DNA from: a virus
Length of the DNA stretch: 64,000 bases
IMG/VR virus record: IMGVR_UViG_3300023106_000010
Coordinates: 22,911-86,910 of that record
Strand: one strand, 5' to 3'
Position numbers and translations under genes: made by a program. The notes under the pieces are model-generated. The model worked only from the letters and a program-made list of their open reading frames with translations, searched no databases and was not told the origin of the DNA. Positions 27,772 through 51,891 of this stretch are shown here, piece by piece; the stretch's first letter is position 1; every line of letters starts with the position of its first letter.

Positions 27772-27984
27772 TTACAGCAAAATTGCTTTGTGTTTGTAGC
27801 CATTTTCTTCTGCGTCCTCTTCATCGTTTGCATAACCCTCACTTGGATCATCTCCGAAATAAATTATCGAAGGTGATTGTACTTTCTCTGGAGATTGTCC
27901 GTGGTCGCAGTAACCGTAGACGGACAGTTCCAGTTCTGCTTTGGATAGCAGCTTCAGTTGTGCTAGTAGTTCTTTTGCTTTCAT
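27772..27984 (-). CDS. Hypothetical protein
   Basis: ATGA-coupled to the upstream HNH gene. Confidence 0.6.
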   Translation of the reverse strand: MKAKELLAQLKLLSKAELELSVYGYCDHGQSPEKVQSPSIIYFGDDPSEGYANDEEDAEENGYKHKAILL

Positions 27985-28751
27985 GTTCCGTGCCTTTCAG
28001 TGTATCCCGCTCCAAGAGCGTTAAGTTCTTCAATCATTTTCTTACGGTGTTCACAAGCCATTTCAAACGCTATTGCATCACCTAATTTAGCAACAGGGAA
28101 GCATTTACATGATTCTGTATTATCGATGTTTCTCCAAACCGCAACATAATAATAGTAAGGATCACCTTTTCTATCTGTATTGGTTTGATACTTTACACCA
28201 GACACTCCTGTTGAATTGTTAATATTCTTCTTTGCGTTTCTGGCATTAATTACTCTTGGTACAAGTCTAAGATTCTCAATTTTATTGTTTGTTCCATCTC
28301 CATCGATATGGTCAATAAACAAATCAGAATCAATTTCTCCATGAAATAAAACCCACACCACACGGTGAGCACTGCTCTTTAAACCATCAATATTAATCTT
28401 CCAATATCCTCCGTGACAACTTCCAACCACATCTCCGGGATAACATTGCACCTTTAAATTATCCTTACCAGAGTATCGAAACACTTTCCATCTCAGACCA
28501 CTAGGACTTGTTTCGTCATACTCTACAATTTCTGACAAATGATTATACTTAACATTCTCCCTACGGATATTCACTTCTGGGTTAACGAACTGACCCTTTC
28601 TTAGTTTTCCACCCGTAGTCTGTACTTCTGTTGAAAAGTTATCAAAAACTATAGTGATATCGGAATACAGATTGTATTTTGTTACAGTACACCAACCACA
28701 ATTATTTGACAGAAATCTATCACCTACTTTAATATTTGGTTTCATGCTCAT
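27981..28751 (-). CDS. HNH homing endonuclease
   Basis: YDETSPSGLRWK, AHRVVW, IDHIDGDGTNNKIENLR, GAGYTERHG; paralog of 13420..13998. Confidence 0.9.
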   Translation of the reverse strand: MSMKPNIKVGDRFLSNNCGWCTVTKYNLYSDITIVFDNFSTEVQTTGGKLRKGQFVNPEVNIRRENVKYNHLSEIVEYDETSPSGLRWKVFRYSGKDNLKVQCYPGDVVGSCHGGYWKINIDGLKSSAHRVVWVLFHGEIDSDLFIDHIDGDGTNNKIENLRLVPRVINARNAKKNINNSTGVSGVKYQTNTDRKGDPYYYYVAVWRNIDNTESCKCFPVAKLGDAIAFEMACEHRKKMIEELNALGAGYTERHGT

Positions 28752-28936
28752 TCAAATGACTCCAATTTCTTCAGAAGTCGAATCTTGGCTGCACGTTTAC
28801 GAGCTTCAATAATCTTTTCTACAATTTCTGTGTGACCTTTGTTTTTATGATAGGTCAACATTTGACTTACAGACTGACTTGTGACAGTTAACACATGTTC
28901 AACAACTTCTTCTACACTTGCTTCTGAATATTTCAT
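28748..28936 (-). CDS. Small basic helical protein coupled to HNH gene (homolog of 51598..51813)
   Basis: MKYSEAS...SQSVS...YHKNKG...VEKI.EAR; ATGA overlap with the HNH gene. Confidence 0.75.
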   Translation of the reverse strand: MKYSEASVEEVVEHVLTVTSQSVSQMLTYHKNKGHTEIVEKIIEARKRAAKIRLLKKLESFE

Positions 28937-28961
28937 GGACAATATCTCTGGTTAAAGAAAC

Positions 28962-28990
28962 ATTATACCATGAACTATATGATTTGTCAA
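28962..28990 (-). promoter_or_regulatory. Consensus sigma70 promoter
   Basis: TTGACA-17-TATAAT, with TG upstream of -10. Confidence 0.9.
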
Positions 28991-28991
28991 G

Positions 28992-29007
28992 CTGTTTATT
29001 TATACAG
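28992..29007. promoter_or_regulatory. LexA (SOS) box
   Basis: CTGT-TTATTTAT-ACAG, 1 nt upstream of the -35; overlaps the DNA polymerase stop codon. Confidence 0.75.
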
Positions 29008-31072
29008 TAGTCAGAACTAACTTCTCAGCTTCGGCTACGTAGTAGTCATAATCAATGTCACCAACAAAGTCTTCAATGTTATTACAAGTCTTTACCATGT
29101 ATTCAATGTCGATGCCAAAGCGGCGTTCCTCACCACCTTCTTCAGTTGGAGGCATGATCTTCACAAGCTTTCCACCAGTCTTGCATGGATAGTAGCGGCA
29201 AATGTTCTGTTGAAGTGTCTCATTTTCTTCCGCATCAATAATCACCAAACGACTACTGCGCGGAACCTTCGTTCGCAACATGAAGTCAAACTTCTCTTTG
29301 TGAGCCATAATAAATTCACGCACATCCGTTCCAAACAGCATCTTCGCTTCTGCTGCCATTGGAATGACCAGTGAAGAGTGGTTCTTGTGCCAACCTAAAT
29401 CTTTGTACTCGTAAGCACCTTTGTTCTTCAGCTTACCATTTGTGTAGTGCGCAATATAATTATTCACGTCTCGGATATACATTGCTTTGTACTCAGCATA
29501 CTCCAAATCAAGCTTAACCTGTTTCTGCCAGTCTGCACAAATCTGATTGTATTGCTCACGAGAAGTACGTTTCATCTTCACAGTGATGCCATCGGTGTTG
29601 ACTTGAATAATCTGCAAACCTTCAATGTCCATCAATTTCTCGGCTAACAGGCACAATGAAAGCTGACCATTGATCGTGATCTTCATAGTGTATGCAGAGT
29701 CGTAGAACACACTAAACTGATTGTTGCTATCGCCGTACACACCGTTCAGAGCTAGCTTCAGCATTGCATTCTCAGCAGATGCCTTTGGATAGCTTTTACG
29801 CTGTTCATAAACGTCCTTGTAAATCTCACAGAACTTCTTGCTCAAGTGTTCTGGATAGACATTGTTGCTGATAGCAATGTTTGGATACATTGAGGAAACG
29901 TCAGCATCAATTACTTCGTGCTCATCATCCTCTCGTACAATGGTTGTGGACAAGCTACCATGAATCCCACCTACACCGAAGTCAAAGCGGAAACCATTAA
30001 TAACTACGTTCAGAGTTTCGGCAATCTTCCACTTGAAATAATATGAGTGCTGGAATTCGCCTTTCTTCTTTGCTTTCAGTTGAACCTTGTCAACCCAGCC
30101 ACATGGATGTTCTCGTTTGAATTCATCATACTGAGCACGAGTCGGTTCACCTGTCTTACACTTCTCTTTCTTGACAATCATCTCAGCGTATAGTGCAACG
30201 TCACCAAGTTTGTGTTCTTCGATATCTGTGAATACACCTTTGGTTTCTTTGATAACCTGCTTAGCCAACCATTGATGAACTGCGATAAACTCAGGGCGTT
30301 TGAAGTCGTAATAATCAAACAAACAATCTCGAATCTTGATATACGGACGAATAGTTTGAATCAATTTCTTCTGACGACCAACCATCTTGTGTGTTTTGAT
30401 ACCAGCTTCTTGTAATCGCATCGTGAAGAAGTCTTTGCCGATCTTCGTATCATTGTGATTCATGAAGTCTCGGTTATACTTCTCCGTCAGTTGAGTTCGG
30501 AAGTCCACCATCGGCTTGCTATGATGATAGAAGTTGTTTGTACAATAAACGTCATGTCCATTGTACTTCACAAGCACATCAATCTGTTCGTGTGACAACT
30601 CCATACCAACAGGAAAAGGCAAATCCTCAATGTTAGGTTCACGCATATTAAACTCAAGCATCTTTAGACTTGTCATCTTCGCTTTGTTGTCGAAGTGATG
30701 AATCTTGAACAGATCAACCTGCTTCACATATTCTTCTTCAGCAGGAACAGTGTGTGCAAACCCGCCCTCTTTGACAGACGCAATTTGTTCCATTGCCCAA
30801 CCATAAATCATTCGTGCGAGTTCTTCACCGTCTTTAGGAAGACGATTGCGATTCTCAATGATCTTGTGTAATACAGGGTAATCAAATCCTTTATTGTTGA
30901 ATCCTACCATTCGATCACCCTGCTTCTTGAGATAATCTACACAAGCAAGTACCCGATGGATTTCGTTCTTACGACCACTTACTTCAAAGGTGTTAGGAAA
31001 CTTTCCATCTGTACGAACAATACAGAAAGTAAAGCAGTTAGGGTAAGTCTCGCAGTCAAACGTCCAATCCAT
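29000..31072 (-). CDS. DNA polymerase, family B-type, with 3'-5' exonuclease
   Basis: Exo DCETY / GFNNKGFD / YNGHD; polymerase motifs DVSSMYP, KLALNGVYG, NTDG. Confidence 0.92.
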   Translation of the reverse strand: MDWTFDCETYPNCFTFCIVRTDGKFPNTFEVSGRKNEIHRVLACVDYLKKQGDRMVGFNNKGFDYPVLHKIIENRNRLPKDGEELARMIYGWAMEQIASVKEGGFAHTVPAEEEYVKQVDLFKIHHFDNKAKMTSLKMLEFNMREPNIEDLPFPVGMELSHEQIDVLVKYNGHDVYCTNNFYHHSKPMVDFRTQLTEKYNRDFMNHNDTKIGKDFFTMRLQEAGIKTHKMVGRQKKLIQTIRPYIKIRDCLFDYYDFKRPEFIAVHQWLAKQVIKETKGVFTDIEEHKLGDVALYAEMIVKKEKCKTGEPTRAQYDEFKREHPCGWVDKVQLKAKKKGEFQHSYYFKWKIAETLNVVINGFRFDFGVGGIHGSLSTTIVREDDEHEVIDADVSSMYPNIAISNNVYPEHLSKKFCEIYKDVYEQRKSYPKASAENAMLKLALNGVYGDSNNQFSVFYDSAYTMKITINGQLSLCLLAEKLMDIEGLQIIQVNTDGITVKMKRTSREQYNQICADWQKQVKLDLEYAEYKAMYIRDVNNYIAHYTNGKLKNKGAYEYKDLGWHKNHSSLVIPMAAEAKMLFGTDVREFIMAHKEKFDFMLRTKVPRSSRLVIIDAEENETLQQNICRYYPCKTGGKLVKIMPPTEEGGEERRFGIDIEYMVKTCNNIEDFVGDIDYDYYVAEAEKLVLTTV

Positions 31073-31643
31073 GTTTCAGACCTTCCACAACACGGATACA
31101 AACATCAAGGATTTCTTCATCATTCATTTCTCCGCGTAATAAATTCACTTGCCAAATAACAACTCGTGTATTCTCTTTAGTATATCCTTTTGAAGAGTCT
31201 CGTCTGTCGATACTTGGTGCAAAAGGATTCTTTTCATATTTTGGATGCTGTGACAAGTCAAATGGTAGATGTGTTATTTCACAGAACCCGGATTTGAGTT
31301 TATCTTCGATCCAATTAACAGTAAGATCAAATTCTTCGTATTTTACTGCTCTGCGTGTAGCACTTTTGTAAAGTGTTTTTGCTCTACCACTGATACTTTT
31401 GTAGAAATCAGCGCTTCTCTTTTGGGAAGCTTCTTTGACTTCAGGGTTTTCTTGTCGTTTCTTCTCTCGTTCTTGTCGTTTGTGTTTGTATTCAGGATTA
31501 TCAGAATATCTTTTTCTATTATACTCTAACACACACGCCTTACAAACCGAATTTCTTCGATGATTTCCATCTTCAGATTTTTCGACAACGTAGAAATCTT
31601 CTTCATTTTTCTCTGTATTACACTTGCTGCAAACTTTACTCAT
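31056..31643 (-). CDS. Cys-rich HNH/endonuclease VII-like homing endonuclease
   Basis: CSKC...CKAC N-terminus; CEIT..PF, PSIDR.D...GYTK.N.RVV...VN. Confidence 0.8.
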   Translation of the reverse strand: MSKVCSKCNTEKNEEDFYVVEKSEDGNHRRNSVCKACVLEYNRKRYSDNPEYKHKRQEREKKRQENPEVKEASQKRSADFYKSISGRAKTLYKSATRRAVKYEEFDLTVNWIEDKLKSGFCEITHLPFDLSQHPKYEKNPFAPSIDRRDSSKGYTKENTRVVIWQVNLLRGEMNDEEILDVCIRVVEGLKHGLDV

Positions 31644-31672
31644 AACACACCTTCTATGACGTTGAAAGCAGT

Positions 31673-31700
31673 ATTATATCATAAAGTTGCAGCCTGTCAA
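31673..31700 (-). promoter_or_regulatory. Sigma70 promoter for nuclease/DNA polymerase
   Basis: TTGACA-16-TATAAT. Confidence 0.8.
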
Positions 31701-31702
31701 GA

Positions 31703-31718
31703 CTGTACGGATATACAG
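31703..31718. promoter_or_regulatory. LexA (SOS) box
   Basis: CTGT-ACGGATAT-ACAG flanked by TA, 2 nt upstream of the -35. Confidence 0.75.
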
Positions 31719-31720
31719 TA

Positions 31721-33340
31721 TTAATCCGAACTACTCTCAAACAGAATTACTTCCCACGTATCTTCGTCAACACAAAACTCGTCACAATTACCAAGATTAC
31801 TCCAAGGTCGATTCTTCAGAACTGTCAGACGGACAAGTCCTCGTTCTCGATTTGGCAAAATCTGTGGTTCAAGTCCAAGAATGATAAATGACAATTGTTC
31901 TAGTGCAGCGGAACCGCGTAGAAGCTCTTTATTTACTTTTACCCAGAATGCTTCATCTTCTTTACCTTTTGGAGCTTTAAAGATGTCATCCGAACGTTTG
32001 ATGTGTGACACAGCAATAATACAGACATCGTTAGCTGCACAGAATGCTGCCAGTTCTGTCATTACCATGTCAAGCTCTTTACGCTCGTTTGCAATGTCTG
32101 ACCCGCTGATGACGACAGAAAGATGGTCCAATATGATGTAACCACACTTCTCAACCAAGTGCATTGTCTTGATCTTGGACATCAGTTCTGTGATTGGCAG
32201 ACTACCAAAGTGGTCAAGCATCACCAAACTATCGTTGTCCACAATCTTGTCATAGGCTTCTTTGATTCGCTCACGAGTTGCACAAGACAACGGATCATTC
32301 TTGAACTTATTATAGTTCACTTTCAGTTCACCCGCAACCATTCGTTGCAAGGTTTCTACCTTATTTTCCTCAAGGTAAATCATACCAACTTTTTCACCAG
32401 CTTTCAAGAAGCCGGATGCAAAGATGGATGTCACAGTCGATTTGCCCACACCAGATGGGCTTGTCACAAGAACAAGCTCTCCCTTGCGGAAACCATGAAT
32501 CTTCTTCATGAGCTTAGGGAATTCATTGATGTACAAACCTTCTTCACGAGGTGCAATCAATTCTTCAAAACTAATATCAGAAGCCTTGATAATCTTCTCA
32601 GCACTATAAGGACGCTTGTTGAATTGCACCAACTTTGCCAGATCGTCAGACTTACCAGCTTGAAGCATGTCCGAAGCATCTTTAAACTCATCAGGAGCCG
32701 TCACAACGAACAGACTCAGTGGTGTACCAATCAGTGCACCAGCGACTGCTTCACGAGCTTCATGGCCCTTCATAATCCCTTTTTGACGTTCCGCTGGAGT
32801 GCAGTAATCGTCATCGAAGAAGATGCAGAGGGAATCAAAGTTCTGGATAAAGGATTCATTGTGTAGAGTTGCCTCTACAGCATTAGCAGTTCCAAGTGGA
32901 ATACTAACAACAAAAGGTTCCATGCCATCAAACTTGGTCCCTTTAACTTGGTCTTTCATAGACTGAAATACGCTCAGACAGTCAAGCTGACCCTCTGTGT
33001 AGACAAGCGCATTCTTTTTTCGTTGAATCGATTCAGCAACATCCTGTCCAAATAGGCGGTTGCTGATATTAACAGAACCAACACTCGTCCAATGATACTT
33101 CTCAGACTTGTCTCTCGTCAAGTCCATTTTGGAGAACCCGACTACTTTTCCTTTTTGATTATACGAAGGGAAATAGAGTGCTTCCAGATTACCGTTGTTC
33201 ACATAACCACGTACGCCAAATCGTTCACAGGTTTCTTTTCGGATATTACGCTGTGGAATATCAACGAACGGATATTTACCAATATCTTTTAGAGTTTCTT
33301 TTGGTACAAACTCGCTACCGCTTTCATTATCATCACTCAT
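31721..33340 (-). CDS. TOPRIM primase / DnaB-like helicase fusion (T7 gp4-like)
   Basis: LFGQ, TEGQLD, FDDD, KDASD; Walker A SPSGVGKST; Walker B IILDHL; LRGS; VLKNR; SD AAGGAG before ATG 33340. Confidence 0.95.
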   Translation of the reverse strand: MSDDNESGSEFVPKETLKDIGKYPFVDIPQRNIRKETCERFGVRGYVNNGNLEALYFPSYNQKGKVVGFSKMDLTRDKSEKYHWTSVGSVNISNRLFGQDVAESIQRKKNALVYTEGQLDCLSVFQSMKDQVKGTKFDGMEPFVVSIPLGTANAVEATLHNESFIQNFDSLCIFFDDDYCTPAERQKGIMKGHEAREAVAGALIGTPLSLFVVTAPDEFKDASDMLQAGKSDDLAKLVQFNKRPYSAEKIIKASDISFEELIAPREEGLYINEFPKLMKKIHGFRKGELVLVTSPSGVGKSTVTSIFASGFLKAGEKVGMIYLEENKVETLQRMVAGELKVNYNKFKNDPLSCATRERIKEAYDKIVDNDSLVMLDHFGSLPITELMSKIKTMHLVEKCGYIILDHLSVVISGSDIANERKELDMVMTELAAFCAANDVCIIAVSHIKRSDDIFKAPKGKEDEAFWVKVNKELLRGSAALEQLSFIILGLEPQILPNRERGLVRLTVLKNRPWSNLGNCDEFCVDEDTWEVILFESSSD

Positions 33341-33364
33341 TCTGCTCCTTTTTTCGTAGCCCAA

Positions 33365-33601
33365 TTAACCCTCCGCATCCATCCCAAAATTCAACTCCCA
33401 ACTACCTGTCTCATCCTGAAGATACATATCCTCATTACAAAACTTGTCATTCGGATTATAAGGATTATCCCAAACAATGAGATTCTCATTCCCAGCATCA
33501 AGCATCACACCATGCTCCTCGCACAATGCTTCCAAGGCAGCTTTGAAGTTGTCGAATTTAGTTGTCATTCTCTCACCAAGTTTGTTGAGGCATTCAAGCA
33601 T
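33365..33601 (-). CDS. Hypothetical protein
   Basis: ORF in operon context; true start probably at MTTKF. Confidence 0.55.
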   Translation of the reverse strand: MLECLNKLGERMTTKFDNFKAALEALCEEHGVMLDAGNENLIVWDNPYNPNDKFCNEDMYLQDETGSWELNFGMDAEG

Positions 33602-33740
33602 GCTGCCAACTCATAAAACTGCTGAGCAACATCTTCCATGGTAGTGTGCTTATCCACGTAAGCTAATTCTGACTTAACGCCTTGTCGCGACACGTAGAAC
33701 ACCTCAACACTCTGGTCATCATATTTGATAATAATTTCAC

Positions 33741-35102
33741 TCATTTCAATCCCTTCGCAGCAGCAAGAATGCGTTCACAGTCTTCCAAGCTGTCAGCAAC
33801 ATTTTTATCATGTCGTTCTTCAAGCCACACTGGCAAGAACAAGCTCTTAGTATCCCGATCCCGCTTGCTGATGATGTCGTTAGCCTTCACTGTCACAATC
33901 TGACCAATCATAACATCACGATTCATCCAGAAGTATTGACGAATAATATCTGTGAAGCCTGTACCTACATCCGTCACCAGTTTACCACAACTACTCTTCA
34001 ATTGCAATGCACCCATCATACCAGAAGCCTTACCAGTGCCTTCTGCAACACCTGTGATTTCCAAGTCAATCTCAAACTCAATCTTTAGTTTCACACAATC
34101 CTTACTCGTGCCGTCTTTCCAAATGAAGTCAGGAGTTTTGAGCACAGCACCTTCCAATCCTGCCGCAGTGAATTTAGAATAAATCTCGTAAGCTTCTACC
34201 AGAGTTGCAACTTTCTCCGTATGCACCTTCTCGACATTAACCACTTTGTTGCTAATCACCAAGTTGCTGAGACTCGCTAAACGATAGCTGTAATCCATAT
34301 TACTCTTACCAGCCTTAAACTCTTCAACTTTCAAGTAGTCCCAAGCAAACATCTTGAAGATGAAATTGTCATCAACGTCACCACCCTTGAGAATACTGTT
34401 AAGCATTCCATTGCCGGTTTGACGGTCTAGAACATCTTGCTTGCCATCGTATTGAGGATTCGTGAATACCAACAACTCACCAATCAACACAGCACCATCA
34501 GGAACACCCTCAGCAAGCTTCTCAGCGAACTCTTTAGGATACTTGCTACCTGCACGAGTGATCGCCTCTGGAGCCTTGCCAGCCTCTTTGACAAGATACA
34601 GGAAGCTCCCATCACATTTCTCTTGCACATACATCAGAGGAAGCTTGGAAAACTTCTCTTTAGCTTTTGCATCAAGCAGGGAGCAACGTTGATAAGGCAC
34701 TGAGAAATATAAATCAGGCCAAGTTTTCAGCACCATCGTGTCACCTACCGAAGCGCCTATGGATCGGTCAATCATAAGCTTGGTAAGTTCTTGACCTTCA
34801 CCATTCAAACTGTGGTGAATCATACTCAGAGTAGCAATCGCCTTGTTGCCTGTATCTTTTCGTTCAGCCAAGTAACCAATCATCTGGTCAATTGTTTCCT
34901 GACCAAATTCCTTGCTAGGAGAGACAGCGAGAGTTTTCGCGGGAACAATCTTCTTCTGATAATAATTAATACCCGGATCATACGTTACCCGCATAAATTC
35001 CTTGAACAACTCGTTGTCCTTGTGCTGCATTAGAATGGCTTGCTTGTTCAGATTACCCTGAGCTTCTTGAAGGCTCTTTACAATATCATACAGTTTCATC
35101 AA
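33741..35102 (-). CDS. ATP-dependent DNA ligase
   Basis: Motif I QEKCDG, LIGEL, AWD, EGAVLK, KLK, VGTGF, SLFLP. Confidence 0.93.
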   Translation of the reverse strand: MMKLYDIVKSLQEAQGNLNKQAILMQHKDNELFKEFMRVTYDPGINYYQKKIVPAKTLAVSPSKEFGQETIDQMIGYLAERKDTGNKAIATLSMIHHSLNGEGQELTKLMIDRSIGASVGDTMVLKTWPDLYFSVPYQRCSLLDAKAKEKFSKLPLMYVQEKCDGSFLYLVKEAGKAPEAITRAGSKYPKEFAEKLAEGVPDGAVLIGELLVFTNPQYDGKQDVLDRQTGNGMLNSILKGGDVDDNFIFKMFAWDYLKVEEFKAGKSNMDYSYRLASLSNLVISNKVVNVEKVHTEKVATLVEAYEIYSKFTAAGLEGAVLKTPDFIWKDGTSKDCVKLKIEFEIDLEITGVAEGTGKASGMMGALQLKSSCGKLVTDVGTGFTDIIRQYFWMNRDVMIGQIVTVKANDIISKRDRDTKSLFLPVWLEERHDKNVADSLEDCERILAAAKGLK

Positions 35103-35716: not shown

Positions 35717-35819
35717 GTTACTATTTCTCCATCAACAGCAACAAGAACCCAATCAGAAAGATATACCACGGAGCTTCGTATGCGCAACACACAATAAATG
35801 CAAATAGTGCTACCATGAT

Positions 35820-40775: not shown

Positions 40776-40776
40776 G

Positions 40777-42677: not shown

Positions 42678-42679
42678 TG

Positions 42680-42874: not shown

Positions 42875-42884
42875 AATTTTCTCC

Positions 42885-44089: not shown

Positions 44090-44111
44090 GTTTCCTCCTG
44101 TGTGAACATAC

Positions 44112-44140
44112 ATTCTACGTGCAGTTGTAAGAGTTGTCAA
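44112..44140 (-). promoter_or_regulatory. Sigma70-type promoter
   Basis: TTGACA-17-TAGAAT, spacer box CTCTTACAA. Confidence 0.75.
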
Positions 44141-44156
44141 GCGCAAATGTTCAGAC

Positions 44157-44192
44157 GAAGAAAAGCCCTCCGAGCTTTCGCAGGGAGGGCTT
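44157..44192 (-). terminator. Intrinsic terminator after SGNH gene
   Basis: Minus strand AAGCCCTCCCTGC-GAAA-GCTCGGAGGGCTT-TTCTTC. Confidence 0.75.
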
Positions 44193-44200
44193 ATGTTGTT

Positions 44201-45670: not shown

Positions 45671-45798
45671 ATAATTATTCTTTCTATAAACGCCAAATGG
45701 CTCCATACACTACGTGTAGAAGCTTTCAGCTTTTGTTATCCCTTGCGCAAGGACTCTAACAGAATGTTAGAACGACTGTAAAAGTTACAGTCTTCGCC

Positions 45799-45826
45799 AT
45801 TATACCACGATTCCGCTGTGTGTCAA
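45799..45826 (-). promoter_or_regulatory. Sigma70 promoter for SGNH gene
   Basis: TTGACA-16-TATAAT with extended -10 TG. Confidence 0.75.
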
Positions 45827-45851
45827 TAGGGCAACAGCCATAAACTTTATC

Positions 45852-45880
45852 TTGACAGTTCTCAGAACAACTCCTATCAT
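45852..45880 (+). promoter_or_regulatory. Divergent sigma70 promoter at start of + strand block
   Basis: TTGACA-17-TATCAT, spacer box TTCTCAGAA. Confidence 0.75.
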
Positions 45881-45909
45881 GTACCTGTACAGCTTCCACG
45901 AAAGACATC

Positions 45910-46522
45910 ATGAAAATTCTGCTTTACTCAGTTCTCACAATTCTCTTGACAGCCATCTGTACACTCCTTATAGTGTACGCAGAGCCTAAGACAATCATCA
46001 ATGTGTTGGCTGTCAGTGTTCTGGCAATTCTAGTAGGATTGATGCTGGAGAGCGGATTTATAGCGTTGTACAATTTTATTAACAAGGAGAAATAATTATG
46101 GCTCAGCCATTGGAAGCTTATCGTAAGAGGAATGGTGATGATACGTTAGTTGTGACGTACTATCCCGGAATGATCGAATTATATACAATTGATGCGTGGC
46201 ATGAGCACAAAACAGCTTTCAACATGCATATCTTAGATTGGCGTGCTTTGAATGTGGCTGTTGAGGCTTGTCATAATGGAGAGAATGTATGAACGAAGAA
46301 GACAATTTGTTGAAGGAATTTGGAAAGCTTGTCGAGCAATGTAGGCTTAATATTGCAGGAGATTGTCCTAGCAAGGATGATGTTATTATTGTGTTTGCTG
46401 GCGAGTACATTGGTGCTATTAAGAAATTAGTTAGCGAGAAAGATTATTTGCTTGATATAACCCTTACACGGTTGACTAAATTTACTGGAAGTAAAAACTT
46501 AGGAGTTGTGAATGAAAGTTGA
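45910..46522 (+). other. Three small hypothetical genes (45910..46095 membrane, 46098..46292, 46289..46522)
   Basis: SD motifs and coupled start/stops. Confidence 0.65.
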
Positions 46523-47213
46523 AATTACAAATAACAAAGGCCAAGAAGGTATTGGTAATCCTTGGTATTCTTCTCGGATTGGCGAGAAGTTTGATGTTGA
46601 AGAAGTTGTTGACGAAGATCGCTTTAGAGAAGGTTGGTATTGGGTGGTTGTTCCTAAGAAAGATAACTTCACTCACTACATTCAAGGTCGTGATTGTGTA
46701 GCTGTATCTTGGGGAATTGACGCAGCATGGGACAAGCCTTCGGAGGATTGGTTTGATTCTTGTAAACCTGTGAGCAATGTTTGGATTGAGAATAAAGACT
46801 TTGTACAACCTGTCGCAGATGATGTTCTTGTAGACGTAAAGTTGGACGGAGTTTATGATGCATATTACAATGGGACTTCCGCTGGTGTATGGATGTGGAA
46901 AAAACTTGAACATGAATGTGTGACACATTGGCGTCTGCATAAAGAAGAGAAATCTTTAGAAGACGCATGGGACGAACCTGATAGCATCCCTTGGACAGAA
47001 GCGGTCACATGTCACAAAGGTGAACAAATCCTTGCTGGCGACTATTACAAGTATCCGGATACGCCTAAGAAAATCATTTATCCAAAGAAGAAATCTGTAG
47101 AGCAAATTACAGCAGACTCTTACAATCAAGTAGCTGGTACAAGTTTGTCAGAACAAATGGTTGTGGATATTGTGCGACTTGTAGAAGCTCTGAAAAACAT
47201 GGAGAAAGTATGA
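46512..47213 (+). CDS. Hypothetical protein
   Basis: 233 aa, SD AGGAG; Trp-rich, VTHWR motif. Confidence 0.7.
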   Translation: MKVEITNNKGQEGIGNPWYSSRIGEKFDVEEVVDEDRFREGWYWVVVPKKDNFTHYIQGRDCVAVSWGIDAAWDKPSEDWFDSCKPVSNVWIENKDFVQPVADDVLVDVKLDGVYDAYYNGTSAGVWMWKKLEHECVTHWRLHKEEKSLEDAWDEPDSIPWTEAVTCHKGEQILAGDYYKYPDTPKKIIYPKKKSVEQITADSYNQVAGTSLSEQMVVDIVRLVEALKNMEKV

Positions 47214-47545
47214 AAATTGAATTCGGAAATTCTAATGCTGCAAATAAGTTTGTTGAGCAAATTAAGAAAGATGGTATGAAGGTGTCTATAGCTGGAGAAG
47301 AATATTTTGTGAATTATATAGAACTTCAGTTTCAACAACCCTTTATCAGTGTAGTTCTACATCTACATCATAATCTTAAACGTGTATATCCAACTTGGGA
47401 ACATGGTGAAACAATTTTGAAAGACTTGCGTCAACGTAATAGCAGCCTGTTGAAGTTTACTGAGAAAGCTATTGCTCTGTATGTGTCCAGTGGTGATGCT
47501 GAGAAGTATCTTGCTAAGTACAATCGTGATGGCACTGAAAAGTAG
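47210..47545 (+). CDS. Hypothetical protein
   Basis: ATGA-coupled. Confidence 0.65.
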   Translation: MKIEFGNSNAANKFVEQIKKDGMKVSIAGEEYFVNYIELQFQQPFISVVLHLHHNLKRVYPTWEHGETILKDLRQRNSSLLKFTEKAIALYVSSGDAEKYLAKYNRDGTEK

Positions 47546-47693
47546 CTTTTCAAAATCAAACTTATTTCCTGAGGCGGTCGAAAACTTCAGGAACTTTTTA
47601 GTCTCTTTTAGCAGCTATTTTTGATTGTCCCTAATTACAAATAGCTCTCATAACACCTAATAGTTTCTCATTCACAACTTTTAAGGAATTGCT

Positions 47694-48047
47694 ATGGCTT
47701 TCGCAACATCGATTATTCTCGCCTATCTCGTGTCTACTGCGCCTATTGTTCATCTACGTTTCATTGACAAGATGGCTTCTGTAGAAAACTGTTCTGCTGT
47801 CATTGAAGCTGTCAAACGTCAAGAAATTCTTGAGCCAGAGGATGAGCAGATTCACACTCGTCTACGATGCTTGGCTGTGTCGCTCAAGATAGACCAAGAC
47901 GACGATGGCCCTAGCAAACCTGTAGCTGTTCCTCCTACAACTCTTAACAGCCCTGTGACAGGATATCCTTGCAGGAAAGCTCTCACAGGTTTGCTAACTC
48001 CCTGCAAAGAGGCTTCCTATTCGGAACAACCCTTACATACACAATAG
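47694..48047 (+). CDS. Hypothetical protein with hydrophobic N-terminus
   Basis: SD AAGGA; followed by a terminator. Confidence 0.6.
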   Translation: MAFATSIILAYLVSTAPIVHLRFIDKMASVENCSAVIEAVKRQEILEPEDEQIHTRLRCLAVSLKIDQDDDGPSKPVAVPPTTLNSPVTGYPCRKALTGLLTPCKEASYSEQPLHTQ

Positions 48048-48052
48048 CACAC

Positions 48053-48077
48053 AGCCCGCTTGAGCGGGCTTTCTTTT
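48053..48077 (+). terminator. Intrinsic terminator
   Basis: AGCCCGC-TTGA-GCGGGCT-TTCTTTT. Confidence 0.85.
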
Positions 48078-48157
48078 GCGTGAAAGAATCTTAATTTCTT
48101 CAAAGATACTTAGCTCAAACTTTCTTTGAAAAGTCCAGAATTATTTTGATAAAACGC

Positions 48158-48186
48158 TTGACTGTCGTTTTGTTATCGTGCATACT
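48158..48186 (+). promoter_or_regulatory. Sigma70-type promoter
   Basis: TTGACT-17-CATACT. Confidence 0.6.
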
Positions 48187-48254
48187 TCTTCACATGGACA
48201 GAAATACAAGTGTCCAAATAACCTAAACCTCGTTATTAATTATTGGAGAATCCC

Positions 48255-48725
48255 ATGAACGCACAAGCTTACGAAACCACTGTCAACTCTGGCCCGGTCC
48301 CTGTTATTGCACGTAAAGACTCCGCAGGCAATGCTGTCATCTTCATTCAGTCTGAGTTGGATATGTCAAAAGAGGGCGGTGAGATTGCTGTTTGGCACAA
48401 CGGGGTAGAGACTCGCAAAGTTCCTCTTTCCTACTACCACAGTAGCACTAAACTGGAGCATGATAAAGAGCTAGAAGTGTTGAACAAATTTGCGACCGAA
48501 TTTAAACCGACCTTCGGGGTTGCAGTGAAACGTAGGCTCGGGAAGGATTTGTCAAAACATCGCACTGTAGTGCAAGATGATGAACCTAAAAGTGCTAACA
48601 ACACGCTTCGCCGGTCTAGTGACAAACCTGTTTTCTCGTTTAATCAAGAAGAGTATCGTGCAAAGATGCAGATCGCGATTCAGGCTGCAATTGCTGCGGT
48701 AGATGCTGAATATAACTCAAAGTAA
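48255..48725 (+). CDS. Hypothetical protein
   Basis: SD GGAG before ATG 48255. Confidence 0.7.
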   Translation: MNAQAYETTVNSGPVPVIARKDSAGNAVIFIQSELDMSKEGGEIAVWHNGVETRKVPLSYYHSSTKLEHDKELEVLNKFATEFKPTFGVAVKRRLGKDLSKHRTVVQDDEPKSANNTLRRSSDKPVFSFNQEEYRAKMQIAIQAAIAAVDAEYNSK

Positions 48726-48836
48726 ACGATCTGTTGTAAAATAGCCTCAAAGAAATAAAGCTCTTGCCTTCTCTCCATGGAACGCCGATAATTCTTAAAA
48801 GGATGTCGGCGTTTATTATTTATTCTGGAGACAAGA

Positions 48837-49220
48837 GTGAGCTTACGTAAAATCATAAGATTTGAAACGGCAGTTGATGCTAAAGGTATGTACCACGATG
48901 GCGAAGCGCCCTGTACAAACGATATGCAGGAAAGTATGCGTCACCCTATGCCTAGAGATGATAGCAAGCTCTCAGACGCATTAGATGCTCACGAAAACCC
49001 AACTATGTCTGATTGGTACTTTGGCTTCGGTAGCAAGAAGCAAGCGCGCTTCTGGATTTATAAAGCTGTGTGGTTGCGTCAACTGCATGCTGCTGGGATT
49101 GTAGTGAGCGAGTACCAATGCCTTCGCGAGCATACGATTGTAGGTGATACTCAAGCTATTTTCCTAAGCCACGAAAGTAAACAATCTTTTTCGATATTAG
49201 ACTACTTCAATTTGAAATAA
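48837..49220 (+). CDS. Conserved-type hypothetical phage protein
   Basis: SD GGAG; R.E....G.Y, HP.P..D, FGF.S..Q...W pattern. Confidence 0.65.
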   Translation: MSLRKIIRFETAVDAKGMYHDGEAPCTNDMQESMRHPMPRDDSKLSDALDAHENPTMSDWYFGFGSKKQARFWIYKAVWLRQLHAAGIVVSEYQCLREHTIVGDTQAIFLSHESKQSFSILDYFNLK

Positions 49221-49533
49221 TGTGTTACTATTAAGCTTCCTCCCAAACAACGAGCGAAGCCTAATGTCTACTCCATTCACATCCCTCTACCTAATCAACT
49301 ACACCCTCGTCAATCCCACAGAGACACGAGTAAGCTATACCAAAGCAGACAATGCAATCCGTGCCTTACACACGCTCCAACAGACTCTTGATCTTCGCAC
49401 GCTCCATAGAGTGGAAAGTGTCTCCGTGAGCCTCTACGACTCATCTAGCAACAGCTTTGTCCCATTGGACTTGGACCTAATTTGCAAGTCGTGGGTGGAA
49501 TGGATTCAGGTATACAAAAGTTGAAGAAACTTG

Positions 49534-49562
49534 TTGACAGTTGTCAGAACTGAGAGCATCAT
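49534..49562 (+). promoter_or_regulatory. Sigma70-type promoter
   Basis: TTGACA-17-CATCAT, spacer box TTGTCAGAA. Confidence 0.65.
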
Positions 49563-49592
49563 AGACCTACATTAACGAAACGGAGAAATAAA

Positions 49593-49934
49593 ATGGACAA
49601 CCGAATCATCCCAAGCTTCATCCAAGAGCTACTCGAAGCAGACATTCCTGTATCGCTCACCAAAGACAGCTTCATCGTAGACGGTTTCTATAAGAGTGGC
49701 ACTGTAGAAATCAAATGCCGAAACGAAGCTGATTGGTATGCTGTAGCTCGGTATCAAGAGAAAACGGATATTGAAGATATTCAAGACCTAGTTGCTTTGA
49801 ATTATTATTGGTGGCAGAGTGGAAAGGAACGCTACGAAGGCTGGAATCAACCTAATAGCCGCTGGCTCCCTCTCTTGGTGCAATACGGCTATGTCACTGC
49901 TAAAGTGATCCCTGAACAAACTATTTACGAATAA
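49593..49934 (+). CDS. Hypothetical protein
   Basis: SD GGAG; GFYKSG motif. Confidence 0.75.
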   Translation: MDNRIIPSFIQELLEADIPVSLTKDSFIVDGFYKSGTVEIKCRNEADWYAVARYQEKTDIEDIQDLVALNYYWWQSGKERYEGWNQPNSRWLPLLVQYGYVTAKVIPEQTIYE

Positions 49935-49945
49935 GGAGAAATAAA

Positions 49946-50533
49946 ATGCCAACAGGATACACCGCAGCAATCAAAGATGGAATCACTTTTAAAGAATATG
50001 CTCTGTCTTGTGCACGAGCTTTTGGAGCGTTAGTATCAATGCGTGATGAGCCATCTAACGCAACAATACCCGATTCTTTCGAGATATCCTCTTACTACCA
50101 GACAGCTTACGACGATGCTCGCAAAGCTCTTGATGATCTCTCTGCACTCGAATACGAAGAAGTTGCTACAAAGTATGAAGCTTACTATACGAAGTCTGTA
50201 GCAGATTATGAAGCCATTAAGCTTAACAAGCAAGATTTGGAAGTAAAGTATCTTCGCATGTTGGCAGATGTAAAAGAGTATGCTGTACCGTCTGACGAAC
50301 ACAAAGAGTTTAAGAAGTTCATGATTGACCAAATCGTGCAAAGCATTGATTGGGATTGTGACATGAAATATTATGATATTCCTAAACGTGTCGAACCACT
50401 TGATTGGTGGTCTGAGCAAATGCTTTACTTGAAGCGTGCTGTAGAAAATCGTAGCAATAGTTTGGACGAAGAAATTGAACGCGTCAACAAACGTAATCTC
50501 TGGATCAAACAACTTAAGGAGTCTTTGAAATGA
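49946..50533 (+). CDS. Conserved hypothetical phage protein (MPTGYT...CARAFGA family)
   Basis: SD AAGGAG; recognisable N-terminal motif; coiled coil. Confidence 0.8.
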   Translation: MPTGYTAAIKDGITFKEYALSCARAFGALVSMRDEPSNATIPDSFEISSYYQTAYDDARKALDDLSALEYEEVATKYEAYYTKSVADYEAIKLNKQDLEVKYLRMLADVKEYAVPSDEHKEFKKFMIDQIVQSIDWDCDMKYYDIPKRVEPLDWWSEQMLYLKRAVENRSNSLDEEIERVNKRNLWIKQLKESLK

Positions 50534-50661
50534 GCAACGACAAAGCACTCTCCCTCTACTCTGGTCGCAATGTGCCAGAGTCTTTGGCAGCAATTAACGC
50601 CCAGATCAATCTTGCACAGATGCCTCTTGTATTATATTTTCAACAAAAGACACTACGCTAG
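50530..50661 (+). pseudogene. Truncated homolog of 51909..52073, cut by the inverted nuclease cassette
   Basis: MSNDKALSLYSGRNVPESLAAINA aligns with MTTNKALELFQGRDVPQHLAESNA; similarity ends at about 50605, where the nuclease gene's 3' end begins. Confidence 0.6.
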
Positions 50662-51601
50662 GATAATTCTCAATTAATGTGGCTTCTGTGATGAAGCCCT
50701 TAACTTCTTGAGGGGTTACGATAAAATTAGCTTTTATTTTTCGTTCGATCTTACTTGCAAGCCAAGGGCTTATATCATTAAAAGTTTTATAGTTTTGAAT
50801 TACAAACTGCCTCTTTTTAAGATTCATTTTGTGGTGTTTCAGTCTTGTAGTCAAGTCTCGTGTTATTCCATAACCAGTAAAACTGCCTGTATCAGAGGTT
50901 ACTTCCAGAACATAAATAATAAAATTAGCGTCCTTAGGGATTGTTTTGGTTTTCCTACAACTGCAAGGCAGATAACCTTGGAGCATATTTTGTCTACAAC
51001 CTTCAAATATCTCTTGGGGATTACTTGTAGAGCATCTTGGGCAAATGTACCTCCAAGAATCTTTACCTTTGACCTCTTTTTCACACTTCCAAAACAATGT
51101 ATCTTCATGGAACAATCCTGTTGCCATTAGCTTATTAGCTACAAATTCATCATTATCTTTCTTTCTCGGTACAACTTGTAAGCTGCACATTTGGCAACCA
51201 CCTCGCTTATCCATGAATGTTTTTATTGTCGATGTCCATTCGTGGTTATCCCTTCTACATCTTAGGAAGATCTTGTCGTCATCAATTCTGGTAATTTCTA
51301 CATTCATTTTTGCCGCTTTTCTGTGACACAAAACAATTTTCTGTTCTTTTGACCATTTACCCATTTTAGTGCAGCCACACGGCAATTTACCTTTCATGAG
51401 AGATGATTTCTCTGCTAGAAATTTGCCATCCCCAAACAGTTCAGAATCATTCTTACAAGTATGGCAAATAATAGTGTACACCTTAGCCCAAGCACGTTTC
51501 TCACCAAACCAACCTAAAACCTCAACTTGGCCTTCTTTACCAAAACGTTTTCCAACAAATTCATCTAGTTCTGCAAAATATGGTTGTACTTTACCGTTCA
51601 T
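50606..51601 (-). CDS. Homing endonuclease-like protein (Cys-rich repeats plus GIY-YIG-like C-terminus), antisense to its neighbours
   Basis: CHTC...PCGC, CRRD.H.W...GGCQMC, CPRC...PCSC; IYVLEV....GYGITR....RL..H. Confidence 0.75.
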   Translation of the reverse strand: MNGKVQPYFAELDEFVGKRFGKEGQVEVLGWFGEKRAWAKVYTIICHTCKNDSELFGDGKFLAEKSSLMKGKLPCGCTKMGKWSKEQKIVLCHRKAAKMNVEITRIDDDKIFLRCRRDNHEWTSTIKTFMDKRGGCQMCSLQVVPRKKDNDEFVANKLMATGLFHEDTLFWKCEKEVKGKDSWRYICPRCSTSNPQEIFEGCRQNMLQGYLPCSCRKTKTIPKDANFIIYVLEVTSDTGSFTGYGITRDLTTRLKHHKMNLKKRQFVIQNYKTFNDISPWLASKIERKIKANFIVTPQEVKGFITEATLIENYPSVVSFVENIIQEASVQD

Positions 51602-51813
51602 TCTCCAAATCCTTTACAATCATTTTTAAGCTGCTCTAGTTGGAGCATTACCCGTTGTTGTTTCAACACCATACGAGCTTTATCAATTCGTTCAACAACA
51701 TAAAAATTCCCCTTGCTTTTGTGGTAGCGCTTTGCTACACTTACTGAAGCTGAGGAAGACGAAGCGATGTGTTGTAGAAGTTCAACATCACTAGAAGTTA
51801 CGTAATTAAACAT
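51598..51813 (-). CDS. Small basic helical protein coupled to nuclease (homolog of 28748..28936)
   Basis: MFNY..S...SASVS...YHKSKG...VERI.KAR; SD AAGGA; ATGA overlap with the nuclease. Confidence 0.75.
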   Translation of the reverse strand: MFNYVTSSDVELLQHIASSSSASVSVAKRYHKSKGNFYVVERIDKARMVLKQQRVMLQLEQLKNDCKGFGE

Positions 51814-51845
51814 TGTGCTTATCCTTACAGTTGTGGTAAGCTTAT

Positions 51846-51873
51846 ATTGTAACACGGAAATGTTACCTGTCAA
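51846..51873 (-). promoter_or_regulatory. Sigma70 promoter for the inverted cassette
   Basis: TTGACA-16-TACAAT. Confidence 0.75.
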
Positions 51874-51875
51874 TA

Positions 51876-51891
51876 CTGTGTATTTATACAG
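51876..51891. promoter_or_regulatory. LexA (SOS) box
   Basis: (TA)CTGT-GTATTTAT-ACAG, 2 nt upstream of the -35. Confidence 0.8.

What the first reader, a model, noticed from the sequence alone, without database searches (positions are those of the whole stretch)
27981..51891. Three homing-nuclease cassettes wired to host LexA (SOS) boxes at a fixed promoter position
Seen: CTGT-TTATTTAT-ACAG (28992), CTGT-ACGGATAT-ACAG (31703) and CTGT-GTATTTAT-ACAG (51876). Each lies 1-2 nt upstream of a TTGACA with a TATAAT/TACAAT -10, and each promoter points into a nuclease gene of a different type (HNH 27981, endoVII/HNH-like 31056, GIY-YIG-like 50606). Eight fixed bases would occur about once per 65 kb by chance, so three with AT-rich spacers at the same offset is very unlikely to be random (my scan for other copies was by eye). 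Established: CTGT-N8-ACAG is the LexA operator of gamma/beta-proteobacteria, and LexA is cleaved when RecA is activated. Inference: these selfish nucleases are silent until the host SOS response is on, timing DNA cleavage to recombination-competent or co-infected cells, possibly with positive feedback because breaks induce SOS. The 31.7-kb promoter would also put the downstream DNA polymerase under SOS control. No lysogeny genes are visible here, so SOS control is unexpected. I am not aware of this being described, but cannot check the literature.
Basis: partly seen in the sequence, partly recalled or inferred. Interest (0 to 1): 0.88.

Follow-up and report, generated by a model that had tools for sequence, protein, structure and literature searches.

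The report
LexA-type boxes on phage nuclease promoters
An apparently lytic 87-kb phage carries near-consensus binding sites for the bacterial DNA-damage repressor LexA pressed against the promoters of three inserted selfish nuclease genes, which suggests that these genes stay off until the host's DNA-damage alarm is raised.

Summary
The bare CTGT-N8-ACAG count is not significant: 3 in the window, and 21 of 100 shuffles reach 3. The extended motif is significant. The genome has 4 CTGTATA-N5-ACAG sites against 0.06 expected, and 3 abut a perfect TTGACA against 0 in 300 shuffles. The sites have 3-5 mismatches to the 20-mer LexA consensus. Boxes upstream of nine E. coli SOS genes have 2-7.

All three window boxes sit at the 5' edge of inserted nuclease cassettes. 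The closest relative lacks both the cassettes and the boxes. More distant relatives have homologous cassettes and promoters but no box. One independent groundwater contig (polymerase 90% identical) keeps box 1 16/16 while its flanks have diverged.

New here: read-through RNA across P1 and P2 folds so that the promoter's own spacer and -10 pair with the SD/AUG. This is a T4-style translational lock, so only own-promoter transcripts should be translatable.

Best reading (about 0.6): host LexA represses these promoters and RecA activation releases them. LexA binding, the host and the transcription starts are all untested. Two other nuclease paralogs carry no box. I rate it a new variant of a known kind.

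The parts
28992..29007 (-). Box 1, CTGTATAAATAAACAG on the minus strand. It overlaps the last codons and the stop of the DNA polymerase gene.
   Evidence: 4 mismatches to the 20-mer consensus. Identical 16/16 in L153.
28962..28990 (-). Promoter P1: TTGACA 28985-28990, 17-nt spacer, TATAAT 28962-28967.
   Evidence: Sequence read.
28932..28974 (-). P1 translational lock. The 5' arm (28956-28974, promoter spacer and -10, upstream of the predicted start) pairs with the 3' arm (28932-28949) that holds the AUG.
   Evidence: MFE -27.3 kcal/mol, z -2.7. RNA from the predicted start gives -2.9 kcal/mol.
28748..28936 (-). Small leader ORF, 62 aa (P0003), no family match.
27981..28751 (-). HNH_3 + AP2-like nuclease gene, 256 aa.
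29000..31072 (-). Family B DNA polymerase, 690 aa, downstream of P2 and of the PacI-like nuclease gene.
31703..31718 (-). Box 2, CTGTATATCCGTACAG on the minus strand, starting 2 nt after the primase/helicase stop codon.
   Evidence: 4 mismatches.
31673..31700 (-). Promoter P2: TTGACA 31695-31700, 16-nt spacer, TATAAT 31673-31678.
31626..31693 (-). P2 translational lock. The 5' arm (31664-31693, spacer and -10) pairs with the 3' arm (31626-31654) that holds the SD and AUG. The AUG pairs with the -10 hexamer.
   Evidence: MFE -40.2 kcal/mol, z -4.4, 0 of 200 shuffles as stable. RNA from the predicted start gives -5.0 kcal/mol.
31056..31643 (-). Zn-ribbon + PacI-like HNH ('endonuclease VII'-annotated) gene, 195 aa (P0004). 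Its end overlaps the polymerase start by 17 nt.
   Evidence: Absent in L017.
31721..33364 (-). Primase/helicase, the conserved gene upstream of the P2 cassette.
51876..51891 (-). Box 3, CTGTATAAATACACAG on the minus strand, between the inverted cassette and the SD of the + strand gene at 51909.
   Evidence: 3 mismatches.
51846..51873 (-). Promoter P3: TTGACA 51868-51873, 16-nt spacer, TACAAT 51846-51851.
51598..51813 (-). Small leader ORF, 71 aa (P0002), homolog of P0003.
50606..51601 (-). CapR + treble-clef zinc finger + C-terminal GIY-YIG-like nuclease gene, 331 aa (P0001).
50530..50601 (+). Truncated copy (24 codons, 54% identical) of the small gene at 51909-52073. It marks the left edge of the inverted P3 cassette.

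Best explanation
The three boxes are operators for the host's LexA repressor (gamma/beta-proteobacterial type). They have been added to the upstream edge of the consensus sigma70 promoters of three free-standing nuclease cassettes.

Proposed mechanism:
1. A LexA dimer on the box, roughly -53 to -38, would cover the upstream flank of the -35 hexamer and the site where the RNA polymerase alpha subunits dock. The promoter would then stay off in a cell whose LexA is intact.
2. When RecA filaments form on single-stranded DNA (DNA damage, phage replication or recombination intermediates), LexA cleaves itself and the promoters fire.
3. For the two cassettes inside the long replication operon (P1, P2), transcripts reading through from upstream fold so that the promoter's own spacer and -10 pair with the SD/AUG of the first cassette gene. 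Only transcripts that start at the cassette's own promoter would be translatable. The box would therefore control the only productive route to the nuclease.
4. The third cassette is inverted relative to its neighbours, gets no same-strand read-through, and has no such hairpin.

The net effect would be nuclease production tied to a recombination-active cell. That is the role late promoters play for homing endonucleases in T4.

Shown here: the sequence, its statistics, its position, cassette presence and absence in relatives, conservation in one relative, and the predicted RNA folds.
Inferred: LexA binding, repression from this position, transcription start sites, the trigger, and the benefit to the phage.
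For: (1) Match to the consensus. The four sites have 3, 4, 4 and 5 mismatches to TACTGTATATATATACAGTA. That consensus is given as TACTG(TA)5CAGTA in PMC9578287 (passages). The best CTG-N10-CAG sites upstream of lexA, recA, sulA, umuD, uvrA, ssb, uvrB, recN and dinB in E. coli K-12 have 2-7 mismatches.

(2) Enrichment and fixed position. 0 of 300 shuffles reach the observed counts. Only 3 of 56 promoter-like sites carry the box.

(3) Selection on the box.
- P1 and P3 share 15 of 16 box bases, while their spacers and leaders are unalignable and their leader ORFs are 36% identical.
- In L153, from a different metagenome, a 29-nt block covering the box and the -35 is identical within an alignment of 75% mean identity. 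The spacer, leader and small ORF have diverged.

(4) The box is an add-on. Homologous promoter-leader-small ORF-nuclease modules in relatives begin 3-10 nt after the upstream stop codon, directly with the -35.

(5) No LexA_DNA_bind or Peptidase_S24 domain is found in six frames of the phage.

(6) The same architecture recurs in unrelated viral contigs. CTGTATA-N5-ACAG-N1-2-TTGACA gives 63 stretches in 30 flank clusters. Its reversed control gives 12 stretches in 3 clusters. A factor shared by unrelated phages is more likely to come from the host.

(7) Translational locks at P1 and P2. Similar hairpins occur in relatives L007 and L012 (z -2.0 and -4.25). 4 of 7 consensus pairs show changes on both sides. 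The T4 precedent is described in PMC2988022 (passages).

(8) Isolated relatives by polymerase infect beta- and gamma-proteobacteria: Limnohabitans, Curvibacter, Acinetobacter, Nitrincola, Rheinheimera.
Against: - The host is unknown. Some relatives infect Acinetobacter, which lacks LexA (abstract of PMC3978071, listing).
- The box lies upstream of the -35 rather than over the core promoter, so repression from there is plausible but not shown. The one precedent I recall (CTX phage rstA promoter) could not be retrieved.
- Relatives with homologous cassettes and promoters lack the box. Of five related whole genomes, only one has a good box, and it is not at a clear promoter.
- Two other nuclease paralogs in this genome have no box. 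The second HNH_3 sits behind a terminator without a promoter. The second CapR/GIY gene has an ordinary phage promoter.
- The fourth box is not at a usable promoter.
- A phage-encoded small HTH candidate exists (13.3 bits, below cut-off).
- The 29-nt identical run in L153 would occur by chance about 0.03 times in such an alignment by my rough estimate, so it is supportive rather than overwhelming.
- Transcription starts are predicted, not mapped.
Confidence: 0.6

Rival explanations
1. The palindrome is the operator of another dimeric regulator, either phage-encoded or a different host protein, that happens to resemble a LexA box. It would set the timing of the cassette promoters independently of SOS.
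For: The box is specific to this phage lineage (this genome and L153) and is missing from homologous promoters of relatives. That fits a lineage-specific regulator. A weak HTH_3 match in an 83-aa ORF lies downstream of a consensus promoter. Many other promoters of this phage carry a different recurrent spacer motif, so the phage does appear to use its own promoter-bound factors (read by eye). T4 intron endonucleases repress their own promoters (PMC2988022 passages).
Against: All four sites match the LexA consensus beyond the CTGT/ACAG core: CTGTATA in all four, and a TA or AA 5' flank in three. The same box-plus-TTGACA architecture occurs in 30 unrelated groups of viral contigs against 3 for the control. 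Three different nuclease families share the box, so autorepression by a nuclease is unlikely. The small leader ORF occurs without the box in relatives and is absent from P2. No LexA-like domain is encoded.
Confidence: 0.2
2. The box has no regulatory role. It could be a junction or recognition sequence left by cassette insertion or recombination, an A+T-rich upstream promoter element, or sequence hitch-hiking with the -35.
For: Every box sits exactly at the 5' boundary of an inserted cassette: it overlaps the polymerase stop, lies 2 nt after the primase/helicase stop, and abuts the duplicated small gene. The fourth box, similar to box 2, lies next to a degenerate -35-like hexamer (TTTACC) and may be a decayed copy. 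A serine recombinase gene lies 295 nt from it.
Against: Related cassettes inserted at the same junctions lack the box. Box 2 has a G+C-containing spacer, so it is not simply an A+T tract. The flanking CTGT/ACAG bases are invariant in four sites whose spacers vary. All boxes are in direct orientation across essential genes, so recombination between them would delete those genes. I recall invertase and resolvase sites as having a different sequence; this was not checked.
Confidence: 0.12
3. Chance co-occurrence of a short palindrome with strong promoters.
For: The bare CTGT-N8-ACAG count is not significant (21 of 100 shuffles; 19% of 300).
Against: 0 of 300 shuffles reach the observed counts for the extended motif or for adjacency to TTGACA. 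The box is conserved in L153.
Confidence: 0.03

Closest known systems
LexA-controlled promoters of mobile elements: temperate phages such as CTX phage and GIL01, integron integrases, colicin operons, ISCR transposase
   Same: A mobile element places a host SOS box at its own promoter, so that a DNA-cutting or mobility function is expressed when RecA is activated (PMC9578287 passages; abstracts of PMC4551915, PMC6182141 and PMC13393415 in the listings).
   Different: Here the carrier looks like a lytic phage: no tyrosine integrase, no S24 repressor, no LexA homolog. The regulated units are free-standing homing-endonuclease-type cassettes. The box lies upstream of the -35, not over the core promoter. 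Searches for LexA together with homing endonucleases or with virulent or lytic phages found no such case.
T4 homing endonuclease regulation: a late promoter placed inside an RBS-sequestering hairpin (I-TevI, I-TevII, I-TevIII, segB, Aeh1 mobE)
   Same: Read-through transcripts sequester the SD/AUG. A promoter placed inside the hairpin gives transcripts that lack the 5' arm. Expression is thereby delayed to a recombination-active phase (PMC2988022 passages).
   Different: The promoters here are consensus sigma70 promoters rather than T4 late promoters. The proposed timing signal is loss of a host repressor rather than a phage late sigma. That review has no occurrence of LexA or SOS.
Chromosomal SOS operators of E. 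coli (recA, sulA, umuDC, recN and others)
   Same: The same 20-mer consensus and a comparable distance from it: 3-5 mismatches here, 2-7 there.
   Different: Those genes are repair and checkpoint genes of the cell. Operator positions relative to their promoters were not analysed here.

Membership tests
LexA (SOS) operator, gamma/beta-proteobacterial type | 16-bp palindrome CTGT-N8-ACAG close to TACTG(TA)5CAGTA | tested here: met
   3-5 mismatches, against 2-7 for sites upstream of nine E. coli SOS genes. Consensus from PMC9578287.
LexA (SOS) operator, gamma/beta-proteobacterial type | Placed so that the bound repressor hinders RNA polymerase at a promoter | tested here: inconclusive
   The box ends 1-2 nt before a perfect -35 at three promoters. 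It does not cover the core hexamers. The fourth site has no good promoter.
LexA (SOS) operator, gamma/beta-proteobacterial type | Bound by the host's LexA and derepressed on RecA-stimulated cleavage | not testable with these tools
   Host unknown. No RNA run holds the sequence.
LexA (SOS) operator, gamma/beta-proteobacterial type | Host belongs to a clade whose LexA reads this motif | tested here: inconclusive
   Isolated relatives by polymerase infect beta- and gamma-proteobacteria, including Acinetobacter, which lacks LexA. The sigma70 consensus promoters fit Proteobacteria.
Free-standing homing endonuclease cassette | Encodes a nuclease of a homing-endonuclease family | tested here: met
   HNH_3 at 1.9e-16. 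PHROG endonuclease families at 3e-27 and 1.7e-31. GIY-YIG is below the Pfam cut-off. PacI-like HNH is only E 0.24.
Free-standing homing endonuclease cassette | Sporadic presence between conserved genes in related genomes | tested here: met
   L017 and L148 have primase/helicase-polymerase-next gene with no cassettes. Others carry different nucleases at the same junctions. The P3 cassette is inverted and flanked by a truncated and a full copy of a small gene.
Free-standing homing endonuclease cassette | Cleaves the cassette-less allele and spreads in co-infection | not testable with these tools
   Needs phage crosses or in vitro cleavage.
T4-type translational lock on a nuclease gene | A stable hairpin sequesters the SD/AUG in read-through RNA, and the cassette promoter lies inside it | tested here: met
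   P1 z -2.7 and P2 z -4.4. The AUG pairs with the promoter spacer or -10. RNAs from the predicted starts are unstructured. Starts are predicted only. P3 has no lock (z -0.6).
T4-type translational lock on a nuclease gene | Structure kept in relatives through compensatory change | tested here: inconclusive
   Five sequences: 4 of 7 consensus pairs have both-side changes, but the covariation term is only -0.76. Single folds give L012 z -4.25, L007 z -2.0, L009 z -0.9, L144 z +0.26.
Temperate-phage SOS switch | Lysogeny module (integrase, cleavable or LexA-dependent repressor) | tested here: not met
   No Phage_integrase, Peptidase_S24 or LexA_DNA_bind. Only a 224-aa invertase/resolvase-type serine recombinase.

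The most novel reading that the evidence does not exclude
A lytic phage that transcribes with host sigma70 throughout uses the host's LexA as its clock for selfish nucleases. A LexA operator bolted onto the cassette promoter, plus a hairpin that silences read-through RNA, would make nuclease synthesis strictly dependent on RecA activation. This would be a host-repressor equivalent of T4 late-promoter control. The phage encodes no RecA-family protein, so it would cut DNA only when the host's recombination machinery is induced. The 30 unrelated groups of viral contigs with the same box-on-TTGACA architecture hint that LexA-timed promoters may be common in phages beyond lysogeny control.
Probability: 0.4. 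Interest if true: 0.75.

Novelty: new variant of a known kind. Interest (0 to 1): 0.62.

Why it matters
Homing endonucleases must be timed so that the breaks they make get repaired by recombination. The only well-described timing scheme is that of T4, which uses late promoters and RNA hairpins. If LexA does the same job here, that would show three things:
- A lytic phage can read the host's DNA-damage state, something usually credited to temperate phages.
- Selfish cassettes can acquire host-repressor control as a module.
- SOS-inducing conditions, such as antibiotics, UV or co-infection, could change gene flow between phages.

It is easy to test. The promoters are E. coli-type consensus promoters and the boxes match the E. 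coli consensus, so reporter and gel-shift assays in E. coli would give a first answer without the unknown host.

Tried and rejected
- **Near-identical phage records.** None found.
- **Expression data.** No RNA holder is listed for this DNA. Laying contigs of three runs showed the source (leaf-litter metagenome) and diverse relatives in two aquatic metagenomes. The stretches without cover over the HNH and PacI-like genes are not joined by any contig, so they say nothing.
- **P3 relatives.** A search with P0001 found nothing. A search with the neighbouring 195-aa gene found one distant locus with no informative synteny.
- **Small-ORF profile search.** It gave only 5 loci, 2 of them new contigs (L144 and L146), both without a box.
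- **Genes downstream of the 63 IMG/VR box-promoters.** PHROGs named 4 of 10 sampled proteins (three to families of unknown function, one to terminase small subunit) and found no family for the other 6, so nothing useful came of it.
- **The genome-contig scan.** It returned 50 stretches from scattered phyla, probably capped, so no taxon tally can be drawn. Two Burkholderiales hits (Variovorax, Pseudoduganella) carry ...ACAGTATTGACA in front of defence- or mobile-element-like genes. I did not follow them up.
- **Rfam on the noncoding region around the fourth box.** No match.
- **Recombination-site reading of the boxes.** Rejected because all boxes are in direct orientation across essential genes.
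- **Literature.** I recall that the CTX phage rstA promoter has a LexA site just upstream of its -35. I could not retrieve that paper, so this remains recall. Supplementary files were not consulted. Lists of LexA sites in supplements of the SOS-regulon papers might bear on operator positions.
- **Structure prediction and complex prediction.** Not used.

Full report
**What is there**

The window is bases 22,911-86,910 of an 86,910-b virus record (CheckV 100% complete, 42% G+C). CTGT-N8-ACAG occurs three times in the window, at the stated coordinates. On the minus strand the three sites read:
- TACTGTATAAATAAACAGC-TTGACA-17 nt-TATAAT
- TACTGTATATCCGTACAGTC-TTGACA-16 nt-TATAAT
- AACTGTATAAATACACAGTA-TTGACA-16 nt-TACAAT

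. A fourth site, CTGTACGAATATACAG, lies outside the window at genome 5191-5206.

**Is it more than chance?**

The bare pattern is not. 1.53 copies are expected in the window, and 21 of 100 shuffles give at least 3. The genome has 4 against 2.2 expected.

The extended match is. In 300 dinucleotide shuffles of the genome:

| Measure | Observed | Shuffle mean | Shuffles reaching observed |
|---|---|---|---|
| 20-mers with at most 4 mismatches to TACTGTATATATATACAGTA | 3 | 0.023 | 0 |
| CTGTATA-N5-ACAG | 4 | 0.057 | 0 |
| Box within 0-3 nt of TTGACA | 3 | 0 | 0 |

The genome has 56 sigma70-like sites by my scan, many with perfect hexamers. Only these three carry the box.

As a positive control for the mismatch measure, I fetched the upstream regions of nine E. 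coli K-12 SOS genes. Their best CTG-N10-CAG sites have 2 (umuD), 3 (sulA), 4 (recA, recN), 5 (lexA, uvrA, ssb, uvrB) and 7 (dinB) mismatches. The phage sites have 3, 4, 4 and 5. That those E. coli sites are LexA operators is textbook knowledge that I recall. The consensus itself is given in PMC9578287.

**What the promoters drive**

- P1 (28990, minus) leads into a 62-aa ORF and then an HNH_3/AP2 nuclease, with further co-oriented genes beyond.
- P2 (31700) leads into a 195-aa zinc-ribbon protein and then the family B DNA polymerase. The 195-aa protein is annotated by PHROGs as endonuclease or endonuclease VII, and its C-terminus weakly resembles the HNH enzyme PacI. Its end overlaps the polymerase start.
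- P3 (51873) leads into a 71-aa ORF and then a 331-aa CapR/zinc-finger protein with a C-terminal GIY-YIG-like motif.

. The two small ORFs are homologs (36% identity, E 2e-10). P1 and P3 are therefore paralogous modules, not independent inventions.

**The boxes belong to inserted cassettes**

- In the closest relative found in IMG/VR (L017: polymerase 84%, primase/helicase 88%), primase/helicase is followed directly by the polymerase and then by the homolog of the gene beyond our HNH. Both cassettes and both boxes are absent. The same holds for L148 (78%).
- Each box lies at the extreme 5' edge of its cassette. Box 1 overlaps the last codons and stop of the polymerase. Box 2 starts 2 nt after the primase/helicase stop.
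- Box 3 lies between the cassette and the SD of a 54-aa + strand gene. A truncated copy of that gene (24 codons, 54% identical) sits at the other end of the inverted cassette.

**The box does not travel with the cassettes in general**

- Relatives carry homologous modules at the same junctions: small ORF + GIY-type gene (L007/L013/L146, L144), small ORF + PacI-like gene (L009), and PacI-like gene alone (L005, L010, L012).
- Most of these have a recognisably homologous TTGACA...TATAAT promoter and leader, yet none has the box. The -35 follows the upstream stop codon within 3-10 nt.
- None of the 59 polymerase-neighbourhood loci has a box at a promoter.
- Of five related whole genomes, one has a single good box (CTGTATAAAAACACAG) in an intergenic region without a clear promoter.
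- Within this genome, a second HNH_3 gene (window about 13420-14000) sits behind a terminator with no promoter. A second CapR/GIY gene (genome 6162-7382) has an ordinary phage promoter. Neither has a box.

**The box is conserved where the lineage is close**

A 1,248-b groundwater metagenome contig (L153) has a polymerase C-terminus 90% identical to ours. After the polymerase it carries CTGTATAAATAAACAG-C-TTGACA, then a small-ORF homolog, then the start of an HNH-type gene.

In the pairwise alignment (75% mean identity), the longest identical run is the 29 nt covering the box and the -35. The promoter spacer, leader and small ORF have diverged. P1 and P3 likewise share 15 of 16 box bases but little else. 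This pattern points to selection on the box sequence itself.

**A second layer: translational locks**

RNA reading through P1 folds into a hairpin. The promoter spacer and -10 (28956-28974) pair with 28932-28949, which includes the AUG (MFE -27.3 kcal/mol, z -2.7).

Through P2 the hairpin is longer. 31664-31693 pairs with 31626-31654, and the AUG pairs with the -10 hexamer (MFE -40.2 kcal/mol, z -4.4, 0 of 200 shuffles as stable).

RNAs that begin at the predicted start sites lack the 5' arm and are essentially unstructured (-2.9 and -5.0 kcal/mol). P3 is inverted and receives no same-strand read-through. It has no such structure (z -0.6).

Relatives show the same design with different sequences: L012 z -4.25 and L007 z -2.0, weaker in L009 and L144. 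An alignment fold of five leaders gives 7 pairs between the -10-proximal bases and the SD, 4 of them with changes on both sides.

This is the arrangement described for T4 I-TevI, I-TevII, I-TevIII, segB and Aeh1 mobE (PMC2988022, passages). It means the cassette's own promoter is probably the only productive source of nuclease. That gives a repressor site on that promoter real leverage.

**Who binds the box?**

Host LexA is the simplest candidate:
- The match to the consensus extends beyond the core.
- The phage encodes no LexA-like or S24 domain.
- The same architecture recurs across unrelated viral contigs. CTGTATA-N5-ACAG-N1-2-TTGACA gives 63 stretches in 30 flank clusters, against 12 stretches in 3 clusters for the reversed control.
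- The phage's cultured relatives infect beta- and gamma-proteobacteria, the classes that I recall use this motif. PMC9578287 lists it for E. coli and P. aeruginosa and states that the motif follows phyla and classes.

Weak points:
- The host is unknown. The source is a leaf-litter metagenome, and relatives occur in aquatic metagenomes.
- Some relatives infect Acinetobacter, which lacks LexA.
- The box lies upstream of the -35, not over the core promoter.
- A small HTH candidate exists in the phage.

The phage has no tyrosine integrase and no RecA-family protein. It does have a 224-aa invertase/resolvase-type serine recombinase, whose gene starts 295 nt from the fourth box. That box sits in an apparently noncoding stretch of about 880 b.

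**Literature**

Searches combining the following terms found no report of LexA-controlled homing endonucleases or of SOS boxes in lytic phages:
- LexA with homing endonuclease, SOS box and phage
- LexA box with lytic phage
- LexA binding site with virulent phage
- LexA with free-standing homing endonuclease
- SOS box with HNH endonuclease

LexA control of other mobile elements is well known: temperate phages, integrons, colicins, ICEs, ISCR. The library lacks most subscription journals, and supplements were closed.

**Verdict**

The best reading, at about 0.6, is LexA operators added to the promoters of nuclease cassettes in one phage lineage, acting together with T4-like translational locks. 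It is a new variant of two known kinds: SOS-wired mobile elements, and promoter-in-hairpin control of homing endonucleases. It rests on sequence evidence only, and it can be tested directly in E. coli.

Noticed in passing
window 28932-28974 and 31626-31693 (minus strand); relatives L007, L009, L012, L144, L153: Promoter-in-hairpin translational locks on nuclease cassettes. The promoter spacer and -10 pair with the SD/AUG of the first cassette gene, so only own-promoter transcripts should be translated. This is the same design as T4 I-TevI and segB, but with sigma70 promoters.
   Followed up: yes
window 28748-28936 and 51598-51813; L009:3240-3434, L007:743-925, L144 about 769-933, L153:955-1143: A 61-71-aa helical leader ORF with no family match precedes nuclease genes of three different types (HNH, PacI-like, CapR/GIY) across this phage group. 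It behaves like a shared 5' module of the cassettes.
   Followed up: partly
genome 4620-5500 (outside the window; L001:930-1810): An apparently noncoding region of about 880 b with repeated GGCAG/AAGCGGCAG motifs. It contains the fourth LexA-type box and lies directly upstream of a 224-aa serine recombinase (DNA invertase-like) gene at genome 5501-6175. No Rfam match. It could be an origin, a packaging region or a recombination region.
   Followed up: partly
many promoters, e.g. window 14670, 25396, 26706, 45852, 49534, 52984: Many consensus promoters carry a recurrent ..AGAAYT.. or palindromic CACAG-N6-CTGTG motif in the -35/-10 spacer. The three box promoters lack it. This suggests a separate, probably phage-encoded, promoter-bound regulator (read by eye).
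   Followed up: no
window 55423-55515 (+), genome 78333-78425: An 83-aa ORF with a weak HTH_3 match (13.3 bits) just downstream of a perfect TTGACA-16-TATAAT promoter. It is followed by a 279-aa ORF with a faint GIY-YIG match (E 0.096). It is a candidate phage regulator.
   Followed up: no
window 13420-14040 (-): A second HNH_3 nuclease gene with a TTG start and no promoter of its own, placed directly behind a terminator-like hairpin. It is an example of a promoter-less cassette in the same genome.
   Followed up: partly
IMG/VR loci L068-L130: 30 unrelated groups of viral contigs carry a consensus LexA-type box abutting TTGACA, mostly ...ACAGTATTGACA. Several sit in front of genes of unknown function, and one group sits beside a ligase-like gene with a KWDG motif. 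Some have a second box-like sequence just after the -35.
   Followed up: partly
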